Source: Prorocentrum cordatum (taxonomy: Eukaryota). From it: a stretch of 64,000 bases of DNA. The stretch lies in the NCBI GenBank assembly GCA_963575745.1, contig CAUYUJ010000301.1:1-64000 (forward strand), given 5' to 3'. Under the pieces are notes generated by a model, which saw nothing but the letters and a program-made list of their open reading frames with translations, had not been told where the DNA came from and made no database searches. The position numbers were made by a program, and so were the translations under genes. Of this stretch, positions 10,476 through 58,432 are shown one piece after another. The first letter of the stretch is position 1. Each line of letters begins with the position of its first letter.

Positions 10476-10630
10476 GAAGGGGCCCAAGGACACACAAATG
10501 AATACGCACAAATCCCAGGATGCCCCATATTTTCCAATATTTTCTGGGCGTCCGTCTTCCCCCCTACTTCCCATACGTTCCCATATTTTCCTGGAGATCC
10601 ACGACTAACTTTGTCTGTGTTTTTGTCCCC
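10476..10630. repeat. Dispersed ~155-bp AT-rich repeat family, copy 1
   Basis: Begins GAAGGGGCCC..GGACACACA and aligns by eye with 14136-14290. Confidence 0.6.
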
Positions 10631-14135: not shown

Positions 14136-14290
14136 GAAGGGGCCCTGGGACACACATATAAATAAACACAAAAAACAAGATTCCACATATTATCCTATAT
14201 GCTCTTGGTTTTTTGTCTCCCCCCCAAATCCCATAGATTCGAATATTTCCTGGGGAATCGACGATTTAATTGTGTCCGCGCGTTTTTTCC
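14136..14290. repeat. Dispersed ~155-bp AT-rich repeat family, copy 2
   Basis: Homologous to 10476-10630. Confidence 0.6.
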
Positions 14291-14549
14291 CTCCTGGATC
14301 GCAGCGCTGGGCGAAGGCGACGAAGAGCTGGAGGCCGAACTCAAGGCCGCGCCCTCGCGCGCTCTCTCTCTACGGGCCGCGGGCCATCGCGAGAGCCATC
14401 GCAGTCAGGCAGCAGGCCGCGCGCCGCCAGCTGCCGCAGCTCGACCGCGGGGCAGGCCGGCCCCCAGCCCGCAATCCACGTCGCCAGTCGAGCATTGGCG
14501 CAGAGCGACGCGGACGACGAGGACACCGCCACGCCGGCCCCCCCCCCCA

Positions 14550-16410
14550 TGGACATCGAGAGCTGCGTCGTCAAGGTCCACTGGGCAGGAACGGCCCCGC
14601 AGCGGCGGCCGCGGGCTTCGCGCTGCAGATCCTGCGCCTGGCCACCACGGCCCACCAGGCCCCGAGGAGGGCCACGCGGGCGGGGCGATCCTCGACGGGC
14701 GCGCGACCTGCCCCAAGGATCCTGCCCACTTGCGTTTCCGCCTCGGGCACCCTGCAGGTCTTCGCGAGGAACCCGCGTGCCAAATACGTCGGGAGTGACG
14801 TCGATCGCCCCATGCCGGTTTGCCGCCTGGGCGTCTACGCAGACGACCTCACGGAGGCGCTGCAGGGCTCGGGGGCGGACTCCATCGGGCGCGCAGGCGA
14901 CGTCCTCACGACCTAACCTGCAAGCTGCGCGACGAGCTCTGGCATCCATCGGCGGCCACGCGGCGATCGCCAGAGCCCCGCAGTCCTACGACGGCTGGAA
15001 GATCGCGCGCAGCTTCCGTCAGCGTGGCATCCGCTTCGTCGGCTCCATGAACATCCTCGGCGCGGAGGCGTGAACTGACCGCCTGCCGCGCTCCGCTGTC
15101 CTCCGCCAGCTGCCCTCTGCCCGCGCCAAATTTGACAGATGCGCAAACTGTGCGGGGGGTCATCATGATTACCGCGGCCGCAGTGCCAGCGACTACGCGG
15201 GCGCGGCACGGGTATCCCGGGCGCCCCACCGCCAGCGGCGCACCAGACACAAAGCCCCCGAGAGGCGGCGACAGGCCGCGCGCCGCCCGTCACCCAGGCG
15301 TCAGATGGACTGACTCGACCGACGGCATGATCAACATATCCCAGCCTGGGCGGCCCCCATCCAGCGCTGGGCCTGTCCCGCGGCCTGCCCTAGGCTTCGC
15401 GGCGGCGGCAGCCGCAGGTCCTGCGCGCGGCGGCTGATCTACGGCAGTGCGTGGCGGTGCCGACTGACGGGGCCATCGCGGCGGCGAAGGACATCGGGTG
15501 GATCCCGACATCTTCGACAGCCCGGCGCGCGCGCAGGGCGAGATCCTGCCCCTCGAACGCGAGGCGTCGGCCGCAGTCAGAGCGCCCCACCTGCGGGGTG
15601 GCACGGCACCGCGCTGGGCGCATCCTGCGCAGGAGTGCGAGGAGGCGCCTGGGGGCGCGCCGACGCCCCGAGACAAGCTGGGCCACTGGGTCAAGACGCC
15701 ACAGGAACTGCGCAAACCTTGGCGACCCACGCGGCGGAGGCTTGTAGACGCGGCTCAGGAGGGCCACGCGCTCAGTCCGTCGTCATCGTCGCGCACTGGA
15801 CCAGGAAGGGGAGTGGCGCAGCCCAGCGGCGCAGACCGCGACGAATGCCTCCCGCGCGGAGCTGCGGGTCACCCTTCACCACTGTTGCGGACGGCGGCAC
15901 GGCGCCTCGGCCGAGATGTGCGACCCCACCTCAAAAAATGGCGACGCACGAGGAGGCCTGCGCCGCAAACGCGGCCTCCCGATTCTGAACGCGGGCGCCG
16001 AGGGCGCGCGCTGCATTGCCAGCTCCAGGCCAGCGCGACGAGTCGGCAGCTGGCGACGCGGGCTCGGCCGAACAGACGACTTCATGACTGGGGATGGCTA
16101 CTACGACAGCAGCTGTCGCAGCCGCTGGCATTGGCCAGAAGCGGCGAGCGCGGGCCGGGGTCTCGTCGTCACTCGCCACAGCCAGGAAGTCGTCGGCCAC
16201 TGCGGCGCCCTCCCAGGTTCCGCTCAGACGTGGCCGCGGCCACAGCACCGGGCGGCCTTGCAGGCGTTCCGCGTCGCCGCCCCGCCGATCACGCTCTACT
16301 CGGGCCACCTGCCTTTCGTGCAAGCTGTCCTGTTCGTCACGGAATATGCCCTCGCTCCCGCGCGCGCCAAGCGTGCAAGCTGGGAACTGATCTCCGAAAA
16401 AGTACCTGGT
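14550..16410 (+). mobile_element. Decayed non-LTR retrotransposon: RT followed by RNase H
   Basis: RT motifs across frameshifts: DIESCVVKVHW, GFALQILRLA, AILDGRAT, GVYADDL (YADD at 14836-14847), MNILGAE. RNase H-like GALPGSAQT...ALQAFRVAAPPITLYSGHLPFVQ...WELISEK at ~16204-16401. Confidence 0.8.
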
Positions 16411-16904
16411 ACCTGGCTCTCGGCGGCGCCGGCGCCATACGCAGTAGGATCACAATGTTTTGGGAGGATGCCCGAGTGTCTCTTCGGTCTCTGTGCTATG
16501 TACCTAGCCACGGGTGCAATCGGTCTGCAGGCCCGCTGCCTGATGGTCTCTGCGGCCGTTCCGTGCTCTGTGCCCGGCCGCCTGCAGTCAAATTTGATTC
16601 GCATGCCCGCCTCTTACTTGTCTTTGCGGCCGATGTGGCCCGTGCCCGTTGCTGCAGTTACACCTGTCTCGCATGCCCGCCCTGACCTTCTCAGTGGCTC
16701 TGCGCATTGCGCCCGCCGCTGTGAGCGCCTGCTCGTTCACGGGTTCCCCTCCTCAGTGCAGGCACGCCACGCGGGACCCGCGGCTCAGGCCAGCATGTTT
16801 TGAGCCGAGCCCACTTGCAGCCTTGGCAGCTGCGGTCCCACTCGAACGGATGTGGGTGTTGGAGTGCTAGCACTCTGCGGATATTACGGAGAACCTCCTG
16901 GTCA

Positions 16905-16905
16905 C

Positions 16906-16973
<68 letters not shown>

Positions 16974-17199
16974 GCAGCATCATCGTCATCATCATCATCT
17001 GCATCATCAGCAGCATCAGCATCAGCATTATCAGCATCATCACCACCAGCATCATTAGCATCATCACCACCAGCATCATCAGCATCACCATCATGATAAT
17101 CATGATCAGCATCATCATCAGCATCATCATCAGCATCATCATCAACATTCGCCGCTCCTCCTCCTCCTCCTGTTCCTCCTGCTCCTCCTCCTCCTCATC

Positions 17200-17231
<32 letters not shown>

Positions 17232-17310
17232 CATCACCACCACCATCATCATCATCATCATCATCATCAGCATCATCATCATCATGGTCCTCCTCCTCCT
17301 GCTCATCCTC
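16905..17310. repeat. (CAT/CAG/CCT)n compound microsatellite
   Basis: Direct reading. Confidence 0.9.
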
Positions 17311-17399
17311 CTCTTCGCTCCCGCATTATCCCTCACCGCCCCTTATTCACCCTTCCTCTCTCTTTCTCTCCCTCCCAACTCCCGCTCCTCCCACGGTAT

Positions 17400-19102
17400 G
17401 GCGAGCATCGAATCGAAATCGAGCGTTCAGTTGCAACAACCAGATGTGAGTCAAGCGGCATGCCTTAGAGAAAGTCTTTGCCTTCTCACCAGCATATGGC
17501 CTCCGCGCGCAAGATACATCAGCTGGCAATAAAAACAACACGACGATGAGATATTCCACAGGTCGGTACGCACATGCCTTACACCGACAACGGATCATGC
17601 TTATTATACACCCTGCAAGCTTTGCACTGTTGAAGCAAACACCACGTCTCACGTCTGGAACAGCAGCTGTGATATCGACGTCCCGCACCGAGCGCAGTAC
17701 ACGGGCAACAAACACATCTCAACACTGAGGACCGGTGACAGATCATGCGGCGGGTTCCGGACACCCTGAACCCAAAAATATCGTCATCTCTTGGAGGCGC
17801 ACCCTTTTACTACCGCCGCCTTCTGGCGGCCTGCCGCCTGCTTCAACCAACGGAACCGCCCTCGATTTTCTTCCGCCGCACTCCGCAGGCCTTCCGCCGG
17901 TTTACGCCGAGGAAGAGATGGCAACACCTCCGATCCTCACAGGCGAGGACCGTTCTGGAGCGCGCCGAATATTCATGTGACGCTCGACATGCGGAGGCGT
18001 CGCAGGGTCAATTAGCTGTGGCACCAGCGCGCGTCGAGCTTTGGCTGGGCCGAGAGTATACCATCAATGAAACGGACGGGCACACTAGAAAAACATCGCC
18101 AGTATCGCTGGATGGCCCACCAACATTATATTCGAAGGAAATATCCAAACAGAGGCGTGAGCGAAATAATGTTATCAGTGCTCGTTTTGCGATCGCTGCT
18201 CCTCGTTATGGTCTCGTTATGCCTTCGCTGCACAAACACATCATAACGAAAACGGTCCAGGAAGTAGCCAAAACACTGTTCAGCTCGAGCCCTAACTAGA
18301 GCTGCCTTCCAACTCCGCATCTGGAAAATCACCTCCGCCTGAAACCTCGCACACAGTCGGGCTTGATTGGACAAGACACGCGAAAGGACACGAGACACTT
18401 CCGAGGGCGACATTGCCATAGGAATGTAGAAAGCATGAGTTACGAGACACAGGACTCAAGGGTACCCTCGATTTGGCAGGGTCGACCTACTAATCATGGC
18501 CGACTGTATCTGACCAACCCGCTGGCGTGGATGGTTGAGCAAGTCACCTGCTCCAACAAAACCCCCTTCGGGTAGGAATTCACCACTAAGCGTACCCCTC
18601 CCGAAAGGCTGGGGCCTCCCCTCCCCTTCCGCCCCGCCACCACCCCTTCCACACACCCCTTCCGTCACCACCTCCATCCAACCCCACCCCACTCAGCGCG
18701 GCCGTGTTCGTGTGGCAAGACGCATGCCTGATGTGCGGCTGGATGCGCTTTTACTGTTGCCCGCACTGGCCCTTCAACTGAAAGATAAGCGGCACGACCT
18801 CTGCTGCAAAATCTAAAACGATTCACCACTCAGTGCTTGCATTCCCGCAGAGGTCGCTGCGGAAAGACAAGATTGAGACCTGTGGCAAGGAACGTGATTG
18901 AGCAAGCAGAAGAAAAAGCTCGGTCAATAAGTGTTTCAACATGTTTCATGACTGCCACACTTGGGTACCTCTTGGATACATCCGTTTTGCTCAGCACGCT
19001 CGCGCGTTCCTCTTCTGATTGCGTTGCCCTGTCGTCCCCCGACTTGAAAATATGGCGGGAGCTTGGTTTCTGCCTTACAACTTTCATCCCATGATGCACT
19101 AC
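17400..19102 (-). CDS. Probable further small exons of the minus-strand gene (unresolved)
   Basis: Unique sequence with exon-like segments, e.g. tag|VVHHGMKVV-AG|gc (19102-19074), cag|VSILSFRSDLCGNASTE-TG|gt, cag|AEVIFQMRSWK|gc. The chain could not be fixed uniquely. Confidence 0.35.
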
Positions 19103-19163
19103 CTACACCATGCTGGCGATCGGCCGCAAAAGGCGCCCGAAATGGAAACACGGCAACAACGGC

Positions 19164-19200
19164 CTGAGACGCACGGCAATCTGCGAATCGATGTGTAACC
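19164..19200 (-). CDS. exon (G)[12 protein letters not shown]
   Basis: Pyrimidine-rich ...ctgcag| acceptor, CAG|gc donor, phase 2->0. Completes the cupin motif. Confidence 0.65.
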
Positions 19201-22200
19201 CTGCAGTTGCGGATAAGAGTGAAGGGGCGGGCGTGGGGTGGGTCGCGGGTGGGTCGCGGGCGGGTGGTGGGTGGGTCGCGGGGTGGGTCGCGGGTGGGTC
19301 GTGGGTGGGTCGCGGGTGGGTCGCGGGTGGGTCGCGGGTGGGTCGCGGGCGGATCGCGGGTGAGTCGCGGGCGGGACGACTGAAACAAACAACAAACGAC
19401 AAACAATGAACAACAAGCACAACAACAACAGCAGCAGCAGCAACAACGAAAACAATCATGCTATAAATGCTCGTTCGTATCTGCTCGCGTGCTATTCAAC
19501 ACGTATATCCCAGACCCTCGATACCCGCCCTCTCCGTCTTCGATGGTACCCCCTTAGGGGCACATCTCTCTTACCTGCAACATTTATTTTCGTGCAACCC
19601 CTAGGGCAGGGGAAGAGAGAACGGATGGAGGAAAGGACAACGGGCAGGCCAGGCGGCGGGTTGCTGAAGCGCGCGTCCTGCATGAATCGTGAGGAAGTCT
19701 CGAGCGATAGCGCGATTCGCATGTGAATCGTGGGGAAATCCACACCGAGAGCGTGATTCCTGACGGTCGAGGGCGCGGCGTCTGAATAACTTGTGAGGAC
19801 GTCCCACGCGAGACTGCGACTCCTCTAGAAAGTGTGAGAAAGTCCCGCTCGACAGCGCGATCTGGGAATATCTTGTGACGAAGTGTAAGCCGCTGTTGTT
19901 GCAAACCAGAGGGCTGGAACACAGTTCGGTGAAACCTCACCATCCCTCGTAAAAGACTACGTGCGAGCCCCAGGGAGAAGCACTTTGATTGAAATGCAAA
20001 GGTTACCAGAAGGGGATCAACAATATTTTTGTTATACCTGAAAACTCAGAAACAACAACAACAACAACAACAACAAACCGGCGACGCTCGCTGGCGCCCC
20101 TATGATCGGAATAATCGGATCCGATTACTCCGATCATTGGATGATCGGAGTGATCGGATCCGATTATTCCGATCATTGGATGATCGGAATGATCGGATCC
20201 GATTAGTCCGATCATTGGATGATCGGAGTGATCGGATCCGATTATTTCGATCATTGGATGATCGGAATAATCAGATGCGATTACTCCGATCATCCAATGA
20301 TCGGATTACTACAATTCCGATTGTATTGGATGATCGGAATAATCGGATCCGATTACTCCGATCATTGGATGATCGGAATAATCAGATGCGATTACTCCGA
20401 TCATCCAATGATCGGAATACTACAATTCATTGTATTGGATGATCGGAATTAATCTTACTCCGATCATCCAATGATCGGAATAATCAGATGCGATTACTCC
20501 GATCATCCAATGATCGGAATACTACAATTCCGATTGTATTGGATGATCGGAATAATCGGATCCGATTACTCCGATCATTGGATGATCGGAATAATCAGAT
20601 GCGATTACTCCGATCATCCAATGATCGGAATAATCAGATGCGATTACTCCGATCATCCAATGATCGGAATAATCAGATGCGATTACTCCGATCATTGGAA
20701 TGATCGGAATAATCAGATGCGATTACTCCGATCATCCAATGATCGGAATACTACAATTCCGATTGTATTGGATGATCGGAATATTGGATGATCGGAATCC
20801 GATCCGATTACTCCGATCATTGGATGATCGGAATAATCAGATGCGATTACTCCGATCATCCAATGATCGGAATAACCAGCTGCGATTAATCCGATCATCC
20901 ATTGCTCGGAATAATCAGATGCGATTACTCCGATCATCCAATGATCGGAATACTAAATTCCGATTGTATGATCGGAATAATCAGATGCGACTACTCCGAT
21001 CATCCAATGATCGGAATAATCGGATCCGATTACTCCGATCATTGAATGATCGGAATAATCAGATGCGATTACTCCGATCATCCAATGATCGGAATAATCA
21101 GATGCGATTACTCCGATCATCCAATGATCGGAATAATCAGATGCGATTACTCCGATCATCCAATGATCGGAATAATCAGATGCGATTACTCCGATCATCC
21201 AATGATCGGAATACTACAATTCCGATTGTATTGGATGATCGGACTAATCGGATCAGAATACTCCGATCATTGGATGATCGGAATAATCAGATGCGATTAC
21301 TCCGATCATCCAATGATCGGAATAACCAGATGCGATTACTCCGATCATCCAATGATCGGAATAATCAGATGCGACTACTCCGATCATCCAATGATCGGAA
21401 TACTACAATTCCGATTCTATTGGATGATCGGAATAATCGGATCCGATTACTCCGATCATTGGATGATCGGAATAATCAGATGCGACTACTCCGATCATCC
21501 AATGATCGGAATAATCAGATGCGATTACTCCGATCATCCAATGATCGGAATAATCAGATGCGATTACTCCGATCATCCAATGATCGGAAAATAATTCTAG
21601 ATGCCGATTACTCGACATACATGATCTGTGGAATACTACAATTCCGATTGTATTGGTATGATCGGATTCGGATCCGATTACTCCGATCATTGGGATGTCA
21701 AAATAATCAGATGCAGATATATAACTAAATATATATCATCCAATGCTCGGAATAATCAGATGCGATTACTCCGATCATCCAATGATCGGAATAATCAGAT
21801 GCGATTACTCCGATCATCCAATGATCGGAATACTACAATTCCGATTGTATTGGATGATCGGTATAATCGGATCCGATTACTCCGATCATTGGATGATCGG
21901 AATAATCAGATGCGATTACTCCGATCATCCAATGATCGGAATTATCAGATGCGATTACTCCGATCATCCAATGATCGGAATAATCAGATGCGATTACTCC
22001 GATCATCCAATGATCGGAATACTACAATTCCGATTGTATTGGACGATCGGAATAATCGGATCCGGTTACTCCGATCATCCAATGATCGGAATAATCAGAT
22101 GCGATTACTCCGATCATCCAATGATCGGAATACTACAATTCCGATTGTATTGGATGATCGGAATAATCGGATCCGGTTTTACTCCGATCATGGGATGATC

Positions 22201-25200
22201 GGAATTATCGAGATTGCGATTACACGATCATCCAATGATCGGGAATAATCAGATCGATTACTCGATCATCCAATGATCAGAATAATCAGATGTGATTACT
22301 CCGATCATCCAATGATCGGAATACTATTCCGACTGTACTGGATGATCGGAATAATCGGATCCAATTACTCCGATCATTGGATGATCGGAATAATCAGATG
22401 CGATTACTCCGATCATCCAATGATCGGAATAATCAGATGCGATTACTCCGATCATCCAATGATCGGAATATCAGATTGCGATTTATTCCCGATCATTCCA
22501 ATGATCGGAATTACTAAATTCCGATTGTATTGGATGATCGGAATAATCAGATGCGGTTACTCCGATCATCCAATGATCGGAATAATCAGATGCGATTACT
22601 CCGATCATCCAATGCTCGGAATAATCAGATGCGATTACTCCGATCATCCAATGATCGGAATAATCAGATGCGATTAGTCCGATTTCATCCAATGATTCGG
22701 AATAATCAGATGCGATTTACTCCGATCATCCAATGCATCGGGAATAATCAGATGAGATTACTCCGATCATCCAATGTTTTCGCAATAATCAGATGGATTA
22801 CTCCGATCAACATGATCGGAAACTACTATTCCGATGATTGGATGATCGGATATTAATCGGAATCCGATTACTTCCGATCATTGGATGATCGGAATAATCA
22901 GATGCGATTTTTTACTACGACCATCAACCCCCCATGATCGGAATTAATCAGAAGATGCGATTAACTCCGATCATCCAATGATCGGAAAATCAGATGCGAT
23001 TCTCCGACGAGGGTCTCGTCGGGAATACTACAAATTCCGACGGGAGGGCCTCCGACGGAATAATCGGATCCGATTACTCCGATCAGTGGATGATCGGAAT
23101 AATCAGATGCGATTACTCCGATCATTCAATGATCGGAATACTACGAATCCGATTGTATTGGATGATCGGAATAATCGGATCCGATTACTCCAATCATCCA
23201 ATGATCGGAATACTACGAATCCGATTGTATTGGATGAGCGGAATAATCGGATCCGATTACTCCGATCATCCAATGATCGGAATACTACGAATGGATGATC
23301 GGAATAATCGGATCCGATTACTCCGATCATCCAATGATCGGAATACTAATATGAATACTACGAATGGATGATCGGAATAATCGGATCCGATTACTCCGAT
23401 CATTGGATGATCGGAATGATCGGACCCGATGACTCCGACCATTGGATGATCGGAATAATCAAATGCGATTACTCCGATCATCCAATGATCGGAATACTAC
23501 AATTCCGATTGTATTGGATGATCGGACTCCGATCATTGGATGATCGGAATAATCAGATGCGACTACTCCGATCATCCAATGATCGGAATACTACGAATCC
23601 GATTGTATTGGATGATCGGAATAATCGGATCCGATTACTCCGATCATTGGATGATCGGAATAATCGGATGCGATTACTCCGATCATTGGATGATCGGAAT
23701 GATCAGATGCGATTACTCCGATCATCCAATGATCGGAATACCACGAATCCGATTGTATTGGATGATCGGAATAATCGGATACGATTACTCCGATGATTGG
23801 ATGATCGGAATAATCGGACCCGATGACTCCGACCATTGGATGATCGGAGTAATAAGATTCCGATTGTATTGGATTCCGATTATAATGGATTCCGAGTGCA
23901 TTGGATTCCGATTATAATTGGTTCCGATTGTAATGGGTTCCAGTTGTATTGGGTTCCGAGTGTATTGGGTTCCGATTGTATGATCGGAATAATTGGATCC
24001 GATTACCCCGATCATTGGATGATCGGAATAATCGCATCTGATTAGTCCGATCATTGGATGATCGGACTAATCGCATCTGATTATTCCGATCATTGGATGA
24101 TCGGCGCAATAGGATTCCGATCGTATTGGGCCCCATTTTGGAATCTGTGGGATTCCATTTGGACGATCGGAATAATCGGATCCGATTCCCCCGATCATTG
24201 GATGATCGGAATAATCGGTTCCGATTACTCCGATCATTGGATGATCGGAATAATCGGATCCGATTACTCCGGTCATTGGATGATCGGCGTAATAGGATTC
24301 CGATCGTATTGGGCTCCATTTTGGAATCTGTGGGATTCCAATTGGACGATCGGAATAATCGGATCCGATTCCTCCGATCATTGGATGATCGGAATAATCG
24401 GATCCGATTACTCCGATCATTGGATGATCGGAATAATCGGATCCGATTACTCCGATCATTTGATGATCGGCGTAATAGGATTCCGATCGTATTGGGCTCC
24501 ATTTTGGAATCTGTGGGATTCCAATTGGACGATCGGAATAATCGGATCCGATTCCTCCGATCATTGGATGATCGGAATAATCGGATACGATTACTCCGAT
24601 CATTGGATGATCGGAATAATCGGATCCGATTACTCCGATCATTGGATGATCGGCGTAATAGGATTCCGATCGTATTGGGCTCCATTTTGGAATCTGTGGG
24701 ATTCCAATTGGACGATCGGAATAATCGAATCCGATTCCTCCGATCATTGGATGATCGGAATAATCGGACCCGATTACTCCGATCATTGGATGATCGGAAT
24801 AATCGGATCCGATTACTCCGATCATTGGATGATCGGCGTAATTGGATTCCGATCGTATTGGGCTCCATTTTGGAATCTGTGGGATTCCAATTGGACGATC
24901 GGAATAATCGGATCAGATTCCTCCGATCATTGGATGATCGGAATAATCGGATCCGATTACTCCGATCATTGGATGATCGGAATAATCAGATCCGAATACT
25001 CCGATCATTGGATGATCGGCGCAATAGGATTCCGATCGTATTGGGCTCCATTTTGGAATCTGTGGGATTCCAATTGGACGATCGGAATAATCGGATCCGG
25101 TTCCTCCGATCATTGGATGATCGGAATAATCGGATCCGATTACTCCGATCATTGGATGATCGGAATAATCGGATCCGATTACTCCGATCATTGGATGATC

Positions 25201-28200
25201 GGAATAATCGGATCCGGTTACTCCGATCATTGGATGATCGGAATAATCGGATCCGATTACTCCGATCATTGGATGATCGGAATAATCGGATCCGACTACT
25301 CCGATCATTGGATGATCGGAGTAATAAGATTCCGATTGTATTGGATTCCGATTATAATGGATTCCGATTCTATTGGATTCCGATTATAATGGGTTCCGAT
25401 TGTATTGGGTTCCGGTTGTATTGGGTTCCGAGTGTATTGGATTCCGATTGTGTGATCGGAATAATCGGATCCGATTACCCCGATTATTGGATGATCGGAA
25501 TAATCGGATCCGATTACTCCGATCATTGGATGATCGGAATTATCGGATCCGATTACTCCGATCATTGGATGATCGGCGCAGTAGGATTCCGATCGTATTG
25601 GGCTCCAAATTGGAATCTGTGGGATTCCATTTGGACGATCGGAATAATCGGATCCGATTCCTCCGATCATTGGATGATCAGAATAATCGGATCCGATTAC
25701 TCCGATCATAGGACGGTCGGAATAGTCGGATCCGATTACTCCGATCATTGGATGGTCGGCGTAATAGAATTCCGATAGTATTGGGCTCCATTTCGGAATC
25801 TGTGGGATTCCAATTGGACGATCGGAATAATCGGATCCGATTCCTCCGATCATTGGATGTTCGGAATAATCGGATCCGATTCCTCCGATCATTGGATGAT
25901 CGGAATAATCGGATCCGGTTACTCCGATCATTGGATGATCGGCGTAATAGGATTCCGATCGTATTGGGCTCCATTTTGGAATCTGTGGGATTCCAATTGG
26001 ACGATCGGAATAATCGGATCCGATTCCTCCGATCATTGGATGATCGGAATAATCGGATCCGATTCCTCCGATCATTGGATGATCGGAATAATCGGTTCCG
26101 ATTACTCCGATCATTGGATGATCGGCGTAATCGGATTCCGATCATATTGGGCTCCATTTTGGAATCTGTGGGGTTCCAATTGGACGATCGGAATAATATG
26201 ATCTGATTCCTCCGATCATTGGATGATCGGAATAATCGGATCCGATTACTCCGATCATTGGATGATCGGAATAATCGGATCCGATTACTCCGATCATTGG
26301 ATGATCGGCGCAATAGGATTCCGATCGTATTGGGCTCCATTTTGGAATCTGTGGGATTCCAATTGGACGATCGGAATAATCGGATCCGGTTCCTCCGATC
26401 ATTGGATGATCGGAATAATCGGATCCGATTACTCCGATCATTGGATGATCGGAATAATCGGATCCGATTACTCCGATCATTGGATGATCGGCGCAATAGG
26501 ATTCCGATCGTATTGGGCTCTATTTTGGAATCTGTGGGATTCCAATTGGACGATCGGAATAATCGGATCCGCATCCTCCGATCATTGGATGATCGGAATA
26601 ATCGAATGCGATTACTCCGATCTTCAAATGATCGGAATACCACGACTCCGATTGTATTGGATGATCGGAATAATCGGATCCGATTACTCCGATCATTGGA
26701 TGATCGGAATAATCGGATCCGATTACTCCGATCATTGGANNNNNNNNNNNNNNNNNNNNNNNNNNNNNNNNNNNNNNNNNNNNNNNNNNNNNNNNNNNNN
26801 NNNNNNNNNNNNNNNNNNNNNNNNNNNNNNNNNNNNNNNACTCCGATCATTGGATGATCGGCGTAATAGGATTCCGATCGTATTGGGCTCCATTTTGGAA
26901 TCTGTGGGATTCCAATTGGACGATCAGAATAATCGAATCGAATTCCTCCGATCATTGGATGATCGGAATAATCGGGTCCGGTTACTCCGATCATTGGATG
27001 ATCGGAATAATCGGATCCGATTACTCCGATCATTGGATGATCGGCGTAATAGGATTCCGATCGGATTGGGCTCCATTTTGGAATCTGTGGGATTCCAATT
27101 GGACGATCGGGAATAATCGGATCCGAGTCCTCCGATCATTGGATGATCGGAATAATCGGATCCGATTACTCCGATCATTGGATGATCGGAATAATCGGAT
27201 CCGATTACTCCGATCATTGGATGATCGGCGTAATAGGATTCCGATCGTATTGGGCTCCATTTTGGAATCTGTGGGATTCCAATTGGACGATCGGAATAAT
27301 CGGACCCGATTCCTCCGATCATTGGATGATCGGAATAATCGGATCCGATTACTCCGATCATTGGATGATCGGAATAATCGGATCCGATTACTCCGATCAT
27401 TGGATGATCGGCGTAATAGGATTCCGATCATATTGGGCTCCATTTTGGAATCTGTGGGATTCCAATTGGACGACCGGAATAATCGGATCCGATTCCTCCG
27501 ATCATTGGGTGATCGGAATAATCGGATCGGATTACTCCGATCATTGGATGATCGGAATAATCGGATCCGATTACTCCGATCATTGGATGATCGGCGTAAT
27601 AGGATTCCGATCGTATTGGGCTCCATATTGGAATCTGTGGGATTCCAATTGCACGATCGGAATAATCGGATCCGATTCCTCCGATCTTTGGATGATCGGA
27701 ATAATCGGATCCGATTACTCCGATCATTGGATGATCGGCATAATCGGATCCGATTACTCCGATCATTTGATGATCGGCGTAATAGGATTCCGATCGTATT
27801 GGGCTCCATTTTGGAATCTGTGGGATTCCAATTGGACGATCGGAATAATCTGATCCTTTTCCTCCGATCATTGGATGATCGGAATAATCGGATCCGATTA
27901 CTCCGATCCTTGGATGATCGGAATAATCGGATCCGAGTCCTCCGATCATTGGATGATCGGCGCAATAGGATTCCGATCGTATTGGGCTCCATTTTGGAAT
28001 CTGTGGGATTCCAATTGGATGATCGGAATAATCGGATCCGATTACTCCGATCATTGGATGATCGGCGTAATAGGATTCCGATCGTATTGGGCTCCATTTT
28101 GGAATCTGTGGGATTCCAATTGGACGATCGGAATAATCGGATCCGATTCCTCCGATCATTGGATGATCGGAATAGTCGGATCCGATTACTCCGATCATTG

Positions 28201-31200
28201 GATGATCGGAATAATCAGATCTGATTACTCCGATCATTGGATGATCGGCGTATTAGGATTCCGATCGTATTGGGCTCCATTTTGGAATCGGTGGGATTCC
28301 AATTGGAGGATCGGAATAATCGGATCCGATTCCTCCGATCATTGGATGATCGGAATAATTGGATCCGATTACTCCGATCATTGGATGATCGGCGTAATAG
28401 GATTCCGATCGTATTGGGCTCCATTTTGGAATCTGTGGGATTCCAATTGGACGATCGGAATAATCGGATCCGAGTACTCCGATCATTGGATGATCGGAAT
28501 AATCGGATCCGATTACTCCGATCATTGGATGATCGGAATAATCGGATCCGATTACCCCGATCATTGGATGATCGGCGCAATAGGATTCCGATCGTATTGG
28601 GCTCCATTTTGGAATCTGTTGGATTCCAATTGGACGATCGGAATAATCGCACCCGGTTCCTCCGATCATTGGATGATCGGAATAATCGGATCCGATTACT
28701 CCGATCATTGGATGATCGGAATAATCGGATCCGATTACTCCGGTCATTGGATGATCGGCGTAATAGGATTCCGATCGTATTGGGCTCCATTTTGGAATCT
28801 GTGGGATTCCAATTGGACGCTCGGGATAATCGGATCCGATTCCTCCGATCATTTGATGGTCGGAATAATCGGACCCGATTACTCCGATCATTGGATGATC
28901 GGAATAACCGGATCCAATTACTCCAATCATTGGATGATCGGCGTATCAGGATTCCGATCGCATTGGTCTCCATTTTGGAATCTGTGGGATTCCAATTGGA
29001 CGATCGGAATAATCGGACCCGATTCCTCCGATCATTGGATGATCGGCGTAATAGGATTCCGATCGTATTGGGCTCCATTTTGGAATCTGTGGGATTCCAA
29101 TTGGACGATCGGAATAATCGGATCCGATTCCTCCGATCATTGGATGATCGGAACAATCGGACCCGATTACTCCGATCATTGGATGATCGGAATAATCGGA
29201 TCCGATTACTCCGATCATTGGATGATCGGCGTCATAGGATTCCGATCGTATTGGGCTCCATTTTGGAATCTGTGGGATTCCAATTTGACGATCGGAATAA
29301 TCGGATCCGATTCCTCCGATCATTGGATGATCGGAATAATCGGATCCGATTACTCCGATCATTGGATGATCGGAATAATCGGATCCGATTACTCCGATCA
29401 TTGGATGATCGGCGTAATAGGATTCCGATCGTATTGGGCTCCATTTTGGAATCTGTGGGATTCCAATTGGACGCTCGGGATAATCGGATCCGATTCCTCC
29501 GATCATTGGATGATCGGAATAATCGGATCCGATTACTCCGATCATTGGAGGATCGGAATAATCGGATCCGATTACTCCGATCATTGGATGATCGGCGTAA
29601 TAGGATTCCGATCGTATTGGGCTCCATTTTGGAATCTGTGGGATTCCAATTGGACGATCGGAATAATCGGATCCGATTCCTCCGATCATTGGATGATCGG
29701 AATAATCGGATCCGATTACTCCGATCTTGGATGATCGGAATAATCGGATCCGATTACTCCGATCATTGGATGATCGGCGTAATAGGATTCCGATCGTATT
29801 GGGCTCCATTTTGGAATCTGTGGGATTCCAATTGGACGATCGGAATAATCGGATCCGATTCCTCCGATCATTGGATGATCGGAATAATCGGATCCGATTA
29901 CTCCGATCATTGGATGATCGGAATAATCGGATCCGATTACTCCGATCATTGGATGATCGGCGTAATAGGATTCCGATCGTATTGGGCCCCATTTTGGAAT
30001 CTGTGGGATTCCAATTGGACGATCGGAATAATCGGACCCGGTTCCTCCGATCATTGGATGATCGGAATAATCGGATCCGATTGCTCCGATCATTGGATGA
30101 TCGGAATAATCGGATCCCGATCGTATTGGGCTCCATTTTGGAATCTGTGGGATTCCAATTGGACGATCGGAAGAATCGGATCCGATTCCTCCGATCATTG
30201 GATGATCGGAATAATCGGATCCGATTACTCCGATCATTGGATGATCGGAATAATCGGATCCGATTACTCCGATCATTGGATGATCGGCGTAATAGGATTC
30301 CGATCGTTTGGGGCTCCATTTTGGAATCTGTGGGATTCCAATTGGACGATCGGAAGAATCGGATCCGATTCCTCCGATCATTGGATGATCGGCGTAATAG
30401 GATTCCGATCGTATTGGGCTCCATTTTGGAATCTGTGGGATTCCAATTGGACGATCCGAATAATCGGATCCGATTCCTCCGAACATTGGATGATCGGAAT
30501 AATCGGATCCGATTACTCCGATCATTGGATGATCGGAATAATCGGATCCGATTACTCCGATCATTCAATGATCGGAATAATCGGATCCGGTTATTCCGAT
30601 CATACACATGGGCTTGTGCTCTACTGCGGTTGCATGATCGGAATAATCGGATCCGATTACTCCGATCATTCAATGATCGGAATAATCGGATCCGATTACT
30701 CCGACCATCCAATGATCGGAATAATCGGATCCGATTATTCCGATCACACCGGCGCCAGCGAGCGTCGCTAATAACAACAACAACAACAACAGCAACAACA
30801 ACAACAACAACGACAACAGCAGCAGCAACAACAACAACCGCAACAGCAACAACAACAACCACAGCGACAACAACAACAACAACAACAACACCAACACCAA
30901 CAACAACAACAACAATAACGACAACAACACCAACAACAACAAACAAACAGCAACTACAACAACAACAACGACAACAACAACACCATCAATCACGGTCAGT
31001 TACAAACTGTTCGTTCGGATTTGCTCGCGGGACACTTAACACGCATATCCCAAACCCTCGATACCCGCCCTGCCCTCTTCGCTCTGGTCGCGCCCCCTTC
31101 GGGGTAAACATTGCTTACCTGCAACGTGCATTTCGCACAGCCCCTGAGGGGGAAGAGGGGACGGATGGAAGGAAAGGACAAGGGGGAGGGCGGAGGATGG

Positions 31201-34200
31201 AACATGAAATTGAATAACAGGAGGGAGGGTTTGGAACAAAAAACACGCGGCAGAACCAAACAAGCAGATCGGGCGGGTAGACCCTACCAGGCGGGTCGGA
31301 AGGTGGACCCAGGCGGCCAGGTCGAGCAACCGGGCTGCTGAAGCGCACGTCCTGCATGATTCGCGAGGACGGTTCGAGCGATAGCGCGTTTCCCAAGGAA
31401 ATCGCAAGGATATCCACAACGAGGGAGTGATTCCTGAGTGTCGAGGGCGCGGCGTCTGAATGAATTGCGAGAAGTCCCACGCGACAGCGCGATTGTTACA
31501 TGCATAAATTGTAAGGATGTCCCGCGCGAGAGCGCGATTCTGGAATAAACTGCGCGGAAATATCAGGCGGGAGCCGCTGTTGTCGTAAACGGGTGGCCAA
31601 CAACCCAAGTCTGAGACCCAAAACATTCCCTGGTAAAAACCTGGGTGCGAGCCCAAGGAAAAGCACTTCAACTCAAAAACGCAATGTGCCCCGGAAGGGC
31701 GACGCCAAGAATCCGCACCACGGAAACCCATTTCACCCACGCACCCAGGGACAGTGAATGACCGTTCGGCCCCCTTACTACGATGCATCATGGAAGGCGG
31801 AGTAAAACGAAATGCAAATTGACGGCTTCAAAACAAAAACGGCGCAAGCAGAAGGCGGTACACATATATCACTCTTTCAACGAGGTGGAACCATTACTCT
31901 CGAGGTCCTTCAGAGCCGCCTGGAGTCCTACTGCAACGGGGGCGCCCTTAAACATTCCGCAATACTCCGCTTCTCCCGAAGATAATGCCACTACAGTGTG
32001 GGTCGAAGTCCGCGACTTTATCATATGTGATACCCACATGACGGCACCTCCTCTCGTCGATGCGCGCGTCTTCTTGCGCCGTGCACAATCGGAGCTTGTC
32101 CATGCCGCAAGCTCCGCAAGACGTCCCTGCCGTCAACACTGATAACCATACCTGTCACGATTATGAAAATACTTTCCGAGGTCGGCGAGATTTCTCGAGA
32201 TAGCGCCGACATGGGCCGGGCACATTTTTTGCCTGATAACTACATGTCGGCATTGTGCGAATTAGTTTGCCCTGGCCACCAAAGCCCAGCCCCTCTTAAT
32301 TTCGCCATTTGGCCATGGCTCCAAACCTTTTTTTCCAGCTCAGCATGTCCATGGCCCGCCCCATCCCGCAACCCGCCCCGGCATCGTTCCACAATCCGAT
32401 TAAGAAAGCGGCTTGACTTCAAGTCGCGCGGTCCTGTCCCGAGCCTGCCCCGGAATTGAACGTCGAGTTCATTCGCAACGTGTCCTTCGAAACAGTCAAG
32501 ATAAACACCGACGAGCGCGCAATTATCTCGCCTCGCCCCACGCGCAAGCGAACACGGCGGCGCTTTTCCGCCATCAAATCCGACGTCGCGCGCAAAGTCG
32601 CGCAACAATCCCCCGCGCAGCCGGCGGCGCCCCGGGCGCCGCGCATTGACTTCCGCCGCATTGCGCACATGTCTGGCTCGCAATCTTCCTCCGGCGACCC
32701 GATGAAGACGTTTGCTTCGCCTTGGCGCAAAAATGCGCGCGACTAGTTCACGAACCCGCACATGAATCCTCTCCCGCGACTCTTCGGGCATGCCCTATTC
32801 CCTCGGCAACGGCCATAGAGAGGAACCGTTTCTTGATCCCTCAGTGGAGGGTGCGAGAAAACACACTCATTGGTTGAACTTGTGCTCAACTTGCTGAACC
32901 ACAAGACGGGATCGGCACTCAAGATTGGCCTCGTCGCCCATATTGATGTCAGTCCACCTCGCACCTCTGGGGGCTCTGCTAGCTACAGCCCCGCGCCCCC
33001 CCCCCCGCACCCTGCCATGGACCCCGCGTTTCTCAACGCGCCCCCCCCCCCCCCCCGGGCCTTCAACGCGAGCATTGGATCAAGCCCACTGCAAAGCTTC
33101 CACACACCTAGCGCGACCCCGAATTCCTCAACCACCCCTGCCGGCACCGAAATACTCCGCAAATCCGCTGATTAGGCCGAATGCCGCTTTACACTTGGAG
33201 GGCGAAGCGAGCGGCGACGTTGCGAGCCCCCCCCAATGAACTCTCTCCTCCTCCGTTCCTTCCCCACGATGTCGCTAAACCCCCGCCCTCAATAATCTGG
33301 CAGGCGTCCGAGTCTCGAGCAACTCGGCGCAGGCGCCGGCCCCGGAGCGGCCCCGGACTCCCGGGGGGCATTAGGCGAGAAGTGCCTCAGCGCATTCTGG
33401 CCCTGGTTAACGCAGGCCCGCGTCGACTTCCACTGCGCCCGTGCACACCCTCGTCGATTTCGATTCCATCGTCTGGACCGCTAGAATTCGCCCCTGGGCC
33501 ACGCGGCCCGAAGGTGCACCTCGAACGGTTGCGGGCCGTCTTTCGGCCGACCAGTCCGTGATCATAGCTCGACGCAGTCGGCCTGGGGATGCCCCCGACC
33601 ACCCCCCCCCTGCCATCGCGACGCGCCGGCGCGGACCTCGACTCATCGCGCTGAGAGCCCTACCCACACACAAAGGGGGCGGTCGGTCATGAAGCTGGCG
33701 ACTTTCTCCGGGAGAACCGCAGCCCCGCCCGCGGCTCGCTCGAGGTCATTACGACACTGATCCCCGCCGTGTCAACACCCCTTCACGCCGTGACATGTCC
33801 TGCGCTGGCGCCGCAGTCCAGCTCGAGGCCCCCTCGGGATGTTCGCAAAGAAACACCGAAACACTCTTCTTGTTCATGTCACAGATGTCCAACACGAACT
33901 CGAAGTGCTTCATTCCGTCGTCTTGCATGTTCCTTGCTCTCCTGGACAGAATTCCTTCGAATTGAAAGCCTGTGAACTATTGAAAGCCGCGCGCTTTGGG
34001 CATAGTATTAACAATAGGGCTGCCTGACGCGCACTATTTCTCATTTGAAACCCCATCGGCCCCCACATTCGTCGCGCGCGCCATGATCCATAGCAAGACT
34101 GGGCGCGGGCGCCATCTTCCCCGCCACGCCGGCCACTCGCACGGGCCAGTAAGCGTTGGAAACCTGCGACTGAAGCCGCGACGGATGTTGCCGCATCTCA

Positions 34201-35526: not shown

Positions 35527-38500
35527 CACACACACACACACATACACACACACACACTTTCTTTAAGCCGTTACCTCCATGTGGGAGACTCTTCAAAATC
35601 CGCGGCGCTTTCTCCAAACTCGGGCAACGGTGCGTTGAAGTTCTCCCACGACACATTCCGCGGGCCGTTCTACCATCGACACGCATTGTAAACGCGTTGA
35701 TGAGAGAAGATGCAAAAACCACTAACCCAGGTACAAGAGTGCGCTCTTCTCCGAACTCAATGTTAAGACGCACGCGGGCCGCGCCACCTGAGACGGTCGG
35801 CGAAGCTCCCTGCGGGGCCACGAAACGCTGTACTGGGCGGGGGGGGCGCATGCGGGCTGCGCCACTGGGACCTTCGGCGGAGCTTCCTATGGGGCCACGA
35901 AGCGCTGCACTGGGTGTGGGAGACGCACGTGGGCTGCGCCACTGGAACCTTCGGTGAAGCTCCCTACGCGGGGGGTGCTATGGCTTTGACCAGAAGACAT
36001 CAAGCTTTGGACACCCCCGACCCCCCGTATAATCTTAGCGACAGGCGTTTGGTTAGGGAGCGGTCCGAATCCGATGGGCTCGTACCCCGTAACAATAGTA
36101 TATGTATACATACATAACGGTGTGATAAGTACTCCGTCCCATAAAGAATAAGCCCGGGAACCACTCCACCTTGGACCGGAACACAGTTCAAGCACTCTGC
36201 ATGGGTCATTTGAGAATGTCACTGTCATCTTCGTCATCATCCTTGTCATGCCGAGGCCAACGCGATGATCCATTGTACTCGTTACCGCTTTGGCTCAGCG
36301 TGGCCCTGGGATTCCTATATCCAACGCTGTCGTTCTTGCTTCGCTGGCTGGCCATCCCAGAGAGCTCACGAAGGCTCGCGAATCCGCATCAGGGCACTTT
36401 TGCATTCCAATCGGTCGTCCGCGGCATGCGGGACCAGCTGTGCATCTCTCCTCCGATGGTGAAAAACTTCAACGCCTGGCAAGTATGGGGCCACGAAACG
36501 TTGCACTGGGAGTGGGAGACGCATGCGGGCTGCGCCACTGGGACCTTCGGCGGAGCTTCCTATGGGGCCACGAAGCGCTGCACTGGGTGTGGGAGACGCA
36601 CGTGAGCTGCGCCACTGGAACCTTCAGTGGAGCTCCCTACGCGGGGGGTGCTATGGCTTTGACCAGAAGACATCAAGCTTTGGACACCCCCGACCCCCCG
36701 TATAATCTTAGCGACCGGTCTTTGTTCAGGGAGCGGTCCGAATCCATAGTATATGTATACATACATAACGGTGTGATAAGTACTCCGTCCCGTGAAGAAT
36801 AAGCCTGGGAACCACTCCAACTTGCACCCAATCACAGTTCAATCACTCTGCATGGGTCACTTGACAATGTCACTGTCATCTTCGTCATCATCCTTGACAT
36901 GCCGATGGCAACGCGATGTTCCATTGTATTCGTTACCGCTTTGGCTCAGCGTGGCCCTGGGATTCCTATATCCAACGCTGTCGCTCTTGCTTCGCTGGCT
37001 GGCCATCCCAGAGAGCTCACGAAGGCTCGCGAATCCGCATCAGGGCACTTTTGCATTCCAATCGGTCGTCCGCGGCATGCGGGACCAGCTGTGCAATTCT
37101 CCTCCGTTCAACGCCTGGCAAGTATGGGGCCACGAAACGCTGCACTGGGAATGGAAAACGCATGGGGGTTGCGCCACTGGGACCTTCGGTGGAGCTTCCT
37201 ATGGGGCCACGAAACGTGTGAGTGGGGTGGCGGGAGGAGGAGGGGAGGGAGGAGAGGAGAGGAGAGGAGAGAAGAGGAGAGGAGAGGTCAGGAGAGGAGA
37301 GAGGAGAGGAGAGGAGAGGCGAGGAGAGGAGAGGAGACAGGACAGACAGAGAGGAGAGAGAGGAGAGGAGAGGAGAGGAGAGGAGAGGAGAGGAGGAGGA
37401 GGAGAGGAGAGGAGCGAGAGAGGGGGGAGAGGAGAGCAGAGAGGAGAGAGGAGAGAGGAAAGAGGAGAGAGGAAAGAGGACAGAGGAGGAGAGGAGAGGA
37501 GAGGAGGAGAGGAGAGGAGAGAGGAGAGGAGAGGAGAGGAGAGGAGAGGAGAGGAGAGGAGAGGAGAGGAGAGGAGAGGAGAGGAGAGGAGAGGAGAGGA
37601 GAGGAGAGGAGAGGAGAGCAGGAACGCGGGGCGCTGTCCCTTCCTAACGAGGACCCAACACCACAATATGGTTGGGAACAATATGAGGCGCTGTAGGCGA
37701 CGCTCCAATCGAACGATTGGCAACGTCTGGAAGCAGAACCGTGAGGGGAGACGCGCACGAAATTCTCTCTTAACAAAAAACGCCAGGACGCCGTCCCTGC
37801 AAACTTTGCAATAAGGACACGAACCGCACCTCCTTCGCGATGCGCGACCTTGAGCATTCGAGCAACCGTGCACAGCTCAACCGATGCCACAACCAATGTG
37901 CCAAAACGGCTTGAGTCGAGGCTCGAGCCAAAAGGGCTACGGACCGTCCTGGGGGCCCCTGGGACCGTCTTGGAAGCCTCTCGGCCGTTCTGGGGCCCAC
38001 TTTGGGCCAGCCGAGAATGGAGCGCTGCGCCAAATCACCCGAGCATCCGCCAATTCCTGGGGCCCCTCCCTAGAGAGCGGTTCGCCCCAACCAAAACGTC
38101 GTCACGTGTGCCTCGCTCTTTCCGCCGCGCGGGCCGCGCCGCGCGAACGAGCGACGCACGGACTTGCCCGAAGAGGGCCCACGGCGTTCAACACCTGTTC
38201 CTGTTACGTTATCAACTCGCCTAACAAGAGATAGTCCGTCCACTGGAAATCTTGCGAGCCTCGAAGTCAAAGCTGTGTCTGGGGGGGGGCCCTGGAGAGG
38301 CTAGTGAAAACAACTTGGGGGGTGTTAGGGGCCGTCTTGGGGGCATGGTGGAGGCTTCTGGGACCGTGTTGAGGCCTCTTGGGCCGTCTTTGAGCCCTCC
38401 AGGGCAGTCTTCGGGCCGTGTTAGGCGGTCGGGAAACAGAAGACACCAAAATAACACCCCCCCGGAAACAAGCACGTATAATCAATCGGAAAAAAACACA

Positions 38501-58400: not shown

Positions 58401-58432
<32 letters not shown>

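What the first reader, a model, noticed from the sequence alone, without database searches (positions are those of the whole stretch)
20081..30768. 10.7-kb satellite of self-palindromic units enclosed in transposon-like terminal inverted repeats
Seen: the array is bracketed by a perfect 18-bp IR (20081-98 / 30751-68), and the inversion continues inward through about three repeat units. Each 39-bp unit is a 36-bp palindrome with one mismatch, centred on GGATCC, plus a 3-bp linker. The only clearly unique insert is 30 bp at 30604-30633, with just three units to its right. (CAA)n continues on both flanks. Inference: a ~300-bp foldback/MITE (TIR + 3 units + core + 3 units + TIR) inserted into a CAA tract and its left arm amplified to >10 kb, making a satellite-seeding cassette. 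TE-born satellites are known in general (foldback- and Helentron-derived arrays). I do not recognise this family. No clean TSD is visible.
Basis: partly seen in the sequence, partly recalled or inferred. Interest (0 to 1): 0.8.

Follow-up and report, generated by a model that had tools for sequence, protein, structure and literature searches.

The report
Hairpin-unit satellite array with inverted-repeat ends
A 10.7-kb block of a short hairpin-forming repeat sits as a clean insertion inside a CAA microsatellite and carries matching inverted 18-base ends, so it looks like a satellite that grew inside a small transposon-like cassette, which is a known route to satellite DNA.

Summary
A tandem array (20099-30750, with a 100-N gap) of a 39-bp unit (36-bp near-palindrome plus 3-bp linker) is bounded by an exact 18-bp inverted repeat (20081-98 / 30751-68). 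It sits in same-strand (AAC)n tracts.

The foldback model is only partly supported.
- The bulk of the array is unidirectional.
- The inward continuation of the inverted repeat is mostly a by-product of palindromic units.
- The 30-bp "core" lies in the slot of the 30-bp spacer of a 183-bp higher-order repeat (66+39+39+39). It is probably a diverged spacer, not a foldback loop.
- The amplified block is shaped like the right-terminal block, not the left arm.

An insertion is supported. The flanks are two direct copies of a high-copy repeat, and the left copy's own CAA tract is empty. If each end is placed 4 bp outside the repeat, an 8-bp AACAACAA duplication restores an in-phase tract, but this is uninformative in a microsatellite.

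Contigs of one public run put the unit at thousands of copies. Whether other loci carry the same ends could not be tested: no genome is held and the end zone was masked.

Best reading (about 0.45): a MITE-like cassette whose internal repeats expanded in place, as in Tetris, Xstir or DTC84. Interest is modest.

The parts
19376..20024 (+). Left copy of the flanking high-copy repeat 'X'. It is preceded by its own degenerate CAA tract (19376-19450), which carries no array, so it serves as a paralogous empty site.
   Evidence: blastn and local alignment to 30918-31712 give 73-74% identity in the same orientation.
20051..20076 (+). Left (AAC)n tract, 8.7 copies, 100% matches.
   Evidence: TRF; sequence.
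20077..20080 (+). ACCG, a possible degenerate outer part of the terminal repeat. The right counterpart TAAT reads ATTA in reverse complement: 1 match and 3 transitions.
   Evidence: Read. Not significant on its own (chance about 1/16).
20081..20098 (+). Left 18-bp terminal inverted repeat.
20099..20257 (+). 3-bp spacer CCT plus four terminal units with GGATCC centre and TGG linker. Units 2 and 4 (20141, 20219) carry inverted-type markers (GTG..TAT).
20258..23839 (+). Left domain: 39-bp units with centre CAGATGCG and linker CCA, mixed with 33-bp units and GGATCC/TGG units. The stretch 21580-23200 is rich in small indels.
   Evidence: TRF 73% matches.
23840..23981 (+). Patch of 16-bp repeats (GATTCCGATTGTATTG). 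A near-identical second patch lies at 25312-25451.
   Evidence: TRF.
23982..30567 (+). Right domain: 183-bp higher-order repeat made of a 66-bp module (a 33-bp-like unit plus a hairpin spacer) and three 39-bp units. Of the 27 full-length blocks analysed, 26 lie here and are 90-99% alike, with no gradient by distance.
26740..26839 (.). 100-N assembly gap inside the right domain. The same higher-order repeat, in the same orientation, lies on both sides.
30568..30750 (+). Terminal block of exactly 183 bp: unit (36) + 30-bp 'core' (30604-30633) + three units with TCA, CCA and ACC linkers. It is 75-79% identical to the higher-order copies.
30751..30768 (-). Right 18-bp terminal inverted repeat.
30773..30982 (+). 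Right (AAC)n tract, 69 copies, 82% matches. It is preceded by TAAT (30769-30772).
   Evidence: TRF.
30918..31813 (+). Right copy of flanking repeat 'X'. Alignment runs to 31712, and high-copy depth in run X1 continues to about 31813.

Best explanation
The segment 20077/20081-30768/30772 is one insertion into an (AAC)n microsatellite. It is a non-coding cassette bounded by short terminal inverted repeats and filled with hairpin-forming subrepeats. In other words, it is a MITE-like non-autonomous DNA element carrying an internal tandem array.

After insertion the internal repeats expanded in place by unequal exchange or replication slippage, which hairpins favour. There were at least two phases. 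An older mixed 39/33-bp domain lies on the left. A young 183-bp higher-order repeat lies on the right, and its block has the same layout as the outermost right-terminal block.

Each unit is built from four copies of a 9-mer (ATGATCGGA or ATAATCGGA, two direct and two inverted). This gives inverted half-site pairs with spacing 0 and 3, the layout of sites bound by a dimeric protein such as a transposase.

Shown:
- the anatomy
- the insertion-like context
- the hairpin potential
- the high genomic abundance of the unit

Inferred:
- transposition
- the order of expansion
- protein binding
For: - The exact 18-bp inverted repeat lies precisely at both array borders, and each end is separated from the first or last unit by 3 bp, the position of a linker. 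Shuffles give a mean of 0.09 matches at up to 3 mismatches.
- Both flanks carry (AAC)n on the same strand. The flanks are two direct copies of one repeat at 73-74% identity. The left copy's own CAA tract holds no array. An inverted duplication or a fold-back artefact would have inverted the flank as well.
- If the ends are placed 4 bp outside the repeat, AACAACAA flanks both sides (20069-76, 30773-80), and removing one copy restores an in-phase (AAC)n (read).
- The array has no coding capacity. 7 array ORFs gave only sub-threshold Pfam matches with 0 stretches that pass on their own.
- All 17 long odd-sized segments inspected (the 18th printed holds the gap) are degenerate units, not foreign DNA.
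- The unit is abundant. In run X1 the summed word depth is 11,574-25,034 over 30400-30601, against 4.8 for a 254-bp contig with no differences in single-copy flank.
- There is precedent for satellites arising from repeats inside elements with terminal inverted repeats: Tetris (PMC4079207; abstract and sections 10 and 17 read), DTC84 (PMC3879986; abstract), and Xstir and miDNA4 (passages of the review PMC12628747).
Against: - No second copy of the ends was seen. The 18-mer occurs nowhere else in 64 kb.
- The unit, and the end-plus-unit pattern, gave 0 matches in metagenome, genome and viral contigs.
- No TSD can be proven. In a microsatellite any length of 2, 5, 8 or 11 fits.
- At 10.7 kb this copy is far longer than a MITE.
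- The thousands of unit copies could all lie in plain arrays, or in this one locus behind the gap.
- No transposase or autonomous partner was found. 296 flank ORFs gave no credible Pfam family.
Confidence: 0.45

Rival explanations
1. An ordinary satellite array with no transposition. It either grew at the centre of a pre-existing 36-bp palindrome (the two 18-mers placed together form one, the same length as a unit). Or it entered a break there as extrachromosomal satellite DNA. Palindrome centres are fragile, and the units themselves are palindromes.
For: The two ends together make a perfect 36-bp palindrome, equal to the unit length, and the borders lie in unit register. The unit is very abundant, as expected of a free-living satellite. 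No second copy of the ends was found.
Against: It needs two events in one CAA tract: first the palindrome, then the array. The paralogous CAA tract of the left flank copy holds no such palindrome. The 18-mer is unrelated in sequence to the unit half (4 of 18 by eye).
Confidence: 0.25
2. A ~300-bp foldback element (end + 3 units + 30-bp core + 3 units + end) whose left arm was amplified to more than 10 kb.
For: Two of the four left-terminal units are inverted-type, against 2 of the other 133. The right-terminal linkers (CCA, TCA) are the complement of the left-terminal TGG. Left against the reverse complement of right is 106/114, and 0 of 74 internal windows do as well in reverse complement. 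The stretch around the core folds as a long hairpin: -36.6 kcal/mol, z = -9.9.
Against: The bulk of the array has the orientation of the right-arm units, not of the left arm. The core lies in the register of the spacer of the 183-bp higher-order repeat, and in-register identity is 14/30 (shuffle p = 0.011). 14 of 74 internal windows match the left end as well or better in direct orientation. Any two neighbouring units fold on each other, so the hairpin around the core is not specific to it.
Confidence: 0.1
3. An assembly artefact. The two contigs either side of the 100-N gap come from different arrays or are wrongly oriented, so the 'pair' of ends does not belong to one element.
For: A gap of unknown size lies in the array. 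Hairpin-forming satellites are hard for long reads (bioRxiv 10.64898/2026.07.13.738322, listing and abstract start only). The stretch 21580-23200 is rich in small indels.
Against: The directional 66-bp module and the 183-bp repeat have the same orientation and 90-99% identity on both sides of the gap. The flanks are direct copies of one repeat, and both carry (AAC)n on the same strand. Even if two loci were joined, each array would still end in the same 18-mer.
Confidence: 0.07

Closest known systems
Tetris foldback element and TIR-220 satellite of Drosophila virilis (PMC4079207)
   Same: A non-autonomous element with inverted ends whose internal tandem repeats were amplified into kb-size satellite-like arrays. 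No ORF and no known autonomous partner.
   Different: Tetris has long inverted arms (up to 1,735 bp) holding 220-bp repeats in both arms, 8-10-bp TSDs, and several copies. Here only 18 bp are inverted for certain, the array is unidirectional, the unit is a 39-bp palindrome, and only one copy is known.
Tandem-repeat-containing MITEs: DTC84/pearl of bivalves (PMC3879986), Xstir and miDNA4 of Xenopus (as described in review PMC12628747)
   Same: A 'cassette' of short inverted-repeat flanks around a variable number of core repeats. In DTC84 palindromes in the repeats are proposed as hotspots of copy-number change. DTC84 also has a microsatellite at the array end. Composite MITE-plus-array forms exist.
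   Different: Those elements are short (up to about 5 repeats) and high-copy, with defined TSDs. In DTC84 the microsatellite lies inside the element. Here the array has about 270 units, the (AAC)n lies outside both ends, and the copy number of the ends is unknown.
Drosophila FB foldback elements (recalled from memory, not checked in a call)
   Same: Inverted ends built of short tandem subrepeats, often with no coding capacity.
   Different: FB arms are inverted relative to each other along their whole length. This was tested here and not met.
Dyad-symmetric centromeric satellites (PMC5889037, listing and abstract start only)
   Same: Satellite monomers with strong dyad symmetry predicted to form non-B DNA. 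The array is an AT-richer island (41-46% GC) in a roughly 60% GC region.
   Different: There is no evidence of centromere location. The dyads surveyed in that paper are under 10 bp, whereas here the whole 36-bp monomer is one palindrome.

Membership tests
Foldback (FB-like) transposon | Long terminal inverted repeats that make up most of the element, with arms in opposite orientation. | tested here: not met
   The ATA..TAC asymmetry points the same way in 133 of 137 units. ATGATCGGAATAATC occurs 106 times and the inverted-type ATGATCGGAGTAATC 0 times. Only 18 bp are inverted for certain.
Foldback (FB-like) transposon | Arms composed of tandem subrepeats. | tested here: inconclusive
   Units abut both ends in register. 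The inverted relation of the terminal units is ambiguous: 106/114 in reverse complement, but 14 of 74 internal windows are as good in direct orientation.
Foldback (FB-like) transposon | Target-site duplication (8-10 bp in Tetris). | tested here: inconclusive
   None at the 18-bp ends. AACAACAA appears on both sides if the ends are set 4 bp further out, but the site is a microsatellite.
MITE / non-autonomous TIR element | Terminal inverted repeats. | tested here: met
   18/18.
MITE / non-autonomous TIR element | No coding capacity. | tested here: met
   The whole interior is repeat units. 7 array ORFs gave only spurious sub-threshold Pfam matches.
MITE / non-autonomous TIR element | Small size (hundreds of bp). 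| tested here: not met
   This copy is at least 10,688 bp (20081-30768).
MITE / non-autonomous TIR element | Many dispersed copies with the same ends, and empty sites. | not testable with these tools
   No genome is held. The end zone 30762-30992 was masked in the only read-laying run. There were 0 matches in the public contig collections.
Satellite DNA with higher-order repeat | Long head-to-tail array of a short monomer. | tested here: met
   TRF: period 39, 97.5 and 180.1 copies.
Satellite DNA with higher-order repeat | Higher-order period whose copies are more alike than the neighbouring monomers within one copy. | tested here: met
   The 26 full 183-bp copies of the right domain are 90-99% alike, while the modules within one copy differ (66 bp against 39 bp, TCC against TAC variants).
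Satellite DNA with higher-order repeat | High genomic abundance. | tested here: met
   Run X1: summed word depth 11,574-25,034 against 4.8 for single-copy flank. These are contig depths and therefore rough.
Helitron/Helentron-borne satellite | No terminal inverted repeats; 5' TC and 3' CTRR ends with a subterminal hairpin; insertion into AT or TT. | tested here: not met
   The ends read GCGACG... and ...CGTCGC and are inverted repeats. The Helitron end motifs are recalled from memory.

The most novel reading that the evidence does not exclude
The 39-bp palindrome is the main satellite of this GC-rich microbial eukaryote, of unidentified lineage, at roughly 0.1-0.4 Mb per genome. It is spread as cassettes with terminal inverted repeats. 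Its 9-mer half-sites (inverted pairs with spacing 0 and 3, about 500 exact copies in this array) would be binding sites of a dimeric protein, either the mobilising transposase or a chromatin or centromere protein. On this reading a transposon's binding-site array became a structural, possibly centromeric, AT-richer island built entirely of cruciform-capable units.
Probability: 0.1. Interest if true: 0.65.

Novelty: new member of a known kind. Interest (0 to 1): 0.35.

Why it matters
If the ends prove to be shared by other arrays, this would be a clean example outside animals and plants of a satellite caught while still inside its transposon cassette. Both ends are intact, the ancestral-looking terminal block is preserved next to its amplified descendants, and the monomer is a complete palindrome. 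That would make the steps from element to satellite readable in one locus. It would also give a tractable case for how hairpin-forming repeats expand and why they break assemblies. If the ends are unique to this locus, it is an ordinary satellite array with an unusual border.

Tried and rejected
- Earlier findings: nothing for this genome or sequence, and the word search returned only unrelated items.
- Rfam at gathering threshold: 0 matches.
- Pfam on 146 ORFs of 150 aa or more, and on 150 of 151 ORFs of 75-149 aa, all outside the array: only low-complexity or sub-threshold matches, and no transposase.
- Public collections: end-plus-unit pattern, 0 in metagenome contigs. A 32-mer of the unit, 0 in genome, viral and metagenome contigs.
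- Literature: three sequence strings, 0 papers. A search on '39-bp, satellite, palindrom, BamHI, tandem' listed no paper that held '39-bp' among the 12 shown, and none described this satellite.
- The search for homologous proteins with the array-end ORF: 704 candidates, none scored (only lengths of 91-291 aa were searched).
- The search of protein representatives: 17 hits at E up to 0.001, and none at 1e-10. Two ENA-only clusters (P0012, 2 members; P0017, 5 members) have a 13-residue period and are 42-46% identical to array translations. They may be translations of a related satellite, but their DNA could not be fetched. P0014 has the same period but looks unrelated.
- The search for related loci in genome contigs: one chance 26-residue match (L001), and none for the window's own ORF.
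- Read laying: runs X22 and X23 laid 0 and 1 contigs, which is no proof of absence. The zone 30762-30992 was skipped, so the copy number of the ends is unknown.
- A 123-bp X1 contig spans the core (30578-30700, depth 94.2, 3 differences). This mean depth could reflect about 20 copies of the core, or a single-copy core next to multi-copy unit words. No conclusion was drawn.
- Core against 66-bp module by local alignment: score 14 against a shuffle mean of 14.5, so no similarity. Only the in-register gapless comparison, chosen after seeing the register, gave 14/30 with p = 0.011.
- Telomere-type repeats: none.
- Substitution spectrum of the higher-order copies: 95 transitions and 115 transversions, nothing telling.
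- The 3-mismatch end-like site at 18020-37 lies in unrelated sequence.
- The organism could not be identified and was not pursued by record.
Full report
**What is there**

The window is about 60% GC and extremely rich in microsatellites. Neither 146 long ORFs nor 150 of 151 shorter ones outside the array gave a credible Pfam family. Rfam found nothing. Between 20099 and 30750 lies an AT-richer block (41-46% GC) made entirely of short tandem units. TRF reports period 39 over 20102-23858 (97.5 copies) and 23975-30603 (180.1 copies), and period 183 over much of the right part. A run of 100 N sits at 26740-26839.

**The ends**

GCGACGCTCGCTGGCGCC at 20081-98 is the exact reverse complement of 30751-68.
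- These are the only exact copies in 64 kb.
- One 3-mismatch look-alike at 18020-37 lies in unrelated sequence.
- Shuffles give 0.09 matches on average.
- The repeat is exactly 18 bp long.
- Each end is separated from the first or last unit by 3 bp (CCT on the left, ACC on the right), which is the position of a linker. The ends therefore sit in register with the array.

**The unit**

The right-domain consensus is ATGATCGGAATAATCGGATCCGATTACTCCGATCAT plus TGG, a 36-bp palindrome with one mismatched pair.
- Of 137 units of exactly 39 bp, 45 have one mismatched pair, 24 have two and 46 have three.
- The unit is itself two direct and two inverted copies of a 9-mer. Exact counts in the array are ATGATCGGA 158, ATAATCGGA 105, TCCGATTAC 69, TCCGATTAT 7 and TCCGATCAT 159.
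- A unit folds as a DNA hairpin of -12.3 kcal/mol (z = -4.9).
- GATC occurs 52 times per kb in the array against 2 per kb elsewhere; 3.8 per kb is expected from composition.

**Internal organisation**

The array is unidirectional. ATGATCGGAATAATC occurs 106 times and GATTACTCCGATCAT 97 times along the whole length. The inverted-type strings occur 0 and 2 times.

- The left domain (20258-23839) uses centre CAGATGCG and linker CCA. It is mixed with 33-bp units and with GGATCC/TGG units.
- Patches of a 16-bp repeat occur twice, in near-identical form (23840-23981 and 25312-25451).
- The right domain is a 183-bp higher-order repeat: a 66-bp module plus three 39-bp units. The 26 full copies in this domain are 90-99% alike, on both sides of the gap and without any gradient by distance.
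- All 17 long odd-sized segments inspected (the 18th printed holds the gap) are degenerate units and none is foreign DNA. The stretch 21580-23200 is rich in small indels.

**The 30-bp 'core'**

The core occurs once in the window. However, the last 183 bp before the right end (30568-30750) have exactly the length and layout of one higher-order copy (66+39+39+39), and the core occupies the slot of the 30-bp hairpin spacer.
- In-register identity is 21/36 for the unit-like part, 14/30 for the core and 104/117 for the three units.
- A shuffle test of the 14/30 gives p = 0.011.
- This comparison was chosen after I had seen the register, and a free local alignment found no similarity. Homology of the core with the spacer is therefore suggestive, not shown.

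Either way, the core is better read as the spacer of the outermost, most diverged block than as the loop of a foldback element. The amplified block of the right domain is shaped like this right-terminal block.

**Does the inversion continue inward?**

For:
- Two of the four left-terminal units (20141, 20219) carry inverted-type markers, against 2 of the other 133.
- The right-terminal linkers CCA and TCA are the complement of the left-terminal TGG.
- The left three units match the reverse complement of the right three at 106/114, better than any of 74 internal windows in reverse complement (maximum 104).

Against:
- 14 of those 74 windows match the left end as well or better in direct orientation (maximum 108).
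- Any neighbouring units pair with each other.

Only the 18-mer is a secure inverted repeat.

**Context: an insertion**

(AAC)n lies on the same strand on both sides (20051-76 and 30773-30982). The flanks are two direct copies of one repeat of about 0.7-0.9 kb (19376-20024 and 30918-31712, 73-74% identity). This repeat is itself high-copy in run X1 (depth 1,500-14,000 over 31006-31813).

The left copy is preceded by its own degenerate CAA tract, which has no array, so it acts as a paralogous empty site. An inverted duplication or a fold-back read artefact would have inverted the flank too, and it did not.

At the 18-bp ends there is no TSD. Four bp further out the ends read ACCG and TAAT (ATTA in reverse complement: one match and three transitions). 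AACAACAA then flanks both sides (20069-76, 30773-80), and removing one copy restores an in-phase (AAC)n. Lengths of 2, 5 or 11 would do the same, so this is compatible with a TSD but proves nothing.

**Abundance**

One public run (X1) holds a 254-bp single-copy flank contig without differences at depth 4.8. Satellite words reach a summed depth of 11,574-25,034. This implies a few thousand units, of the order of 10^5 bp, of which this array (about 270 units) is a few per cent. The rest lies either at other loci or behind the gap.

A freshwater metagenome run (X2) holds two 151-bp single-copy pieces without differences, so the organism or a very close relative lives in fresh water. The zone of the right end was masked in that call, so the key question remains open: do the ends occur at other loci?

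**Searches outside the window**

No genome is held. The following found nothing:
- the unit and the end-plus-unit pattern in three contig collections
- the sequence strings in the paper library
- the array-end ORF in the word-indexed protein search
- the locus searches

The exhaustive protein search gave only weak hits. Among them are two small ENA-only clusters with a 13-residue period, 42-46% identical to array translations. They may be a related satellite, but their DNA could not be fetched.

**Interpretation**

Best reading (about 0.45): a MITE-like cassette with 18-bp (perhaps 22-bp) inverted ends and internal palindromic subrepeats inserted into the (AAC)n tract. It then expanded in place, most recently as a 183-bp higher-order repeat. 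This is the route described for Tetris (PMC4079207; abstract and sections 10 and 17 read), DTC84 (PMC3879986; abstract), and Xstir and miDNA4 (passages of the review PMC12628747).

It is not a foldback element in the strict sense, because the test for inverted arms was not met.

Rivals:
- a plain satellite that grew in, or entered, a split 36-bp palindrome (0.25)
- a mis-join at the gap (0.07)

The mis-join is made unlikely by the concordant orientation of the directional 66-bp module and of both flanks.

**Verdict**

This is a new member of a known kind, of modest interest until the ends are found, or shown to be absent, at other loci.

Noticed in passing
window 19376-20024 and 30918-31813: Two direct copies (73-74% identical) of a repeat of about 0.7-0.9 kb that begins with a CAA tract and contains GC-rich TTCG hairpin motifs. 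Its words reach a depth of 1,500-14,000 in run X1, so it is a major dispersed or tandem family of this genome. Its nature is unknown.
   Followed up: partly
window 1332-2609, 35766-35968, 36484-36639: Tandem repeats of 74-90 bp that share one motif (…GCCACTGG.GCCTTCGG.GGAGCTCCCTA.GGGGCCACGAA…) occur at three places in the window. They form a second satellite-like family.
   Followed up: no
whole window: No credible protein family in 296 ORFs scanned. Very long trinucleotide tracts are present, for example (TCC)n at 58341-59302 (about 319 copies), TTA-rich 57476-58341, (TCA)n at 16902-17285 and (CCT)n at 52442-52867. The window is a gene-free, microsatellite-laden region.
   Followed up: partly
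window 21580-23200: Units here carry many single-base insertions and deletions, unlike the rest of the array. This could be uncorrected long-read error in hairpin-forming sequence, or an older, decayed part of the array.
   Followed up: no
window 23840-23981 and 25312-25451: Two near-identical patches of a 16-bp repeat (GATTCCGATTGTATTG), each starting with the same variant unit and lying 1,472 bp apart. This indicates a larger duplication inside the array.
   Followed up: no
proteins P0012/P0018 and P0017/P0019-P0022 (ENA metagenome assemblies, contigs up to 18.9 kb): ORFs with a 13-residue period (…RSLADRNPTI…) are 42-46% identical to translations of the array (tblastn E about 1e-11 against the window). 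They may be a related 39-bp satellite in another organism.
   Followed up: partly
window 32140-32290, 32396-32546: Two 151-bp contigs of a freshwater metagenome run (X2) match single-copy flank without a difference, so the source organism or a very close relative occurs in fresh water.
   Followed up: no
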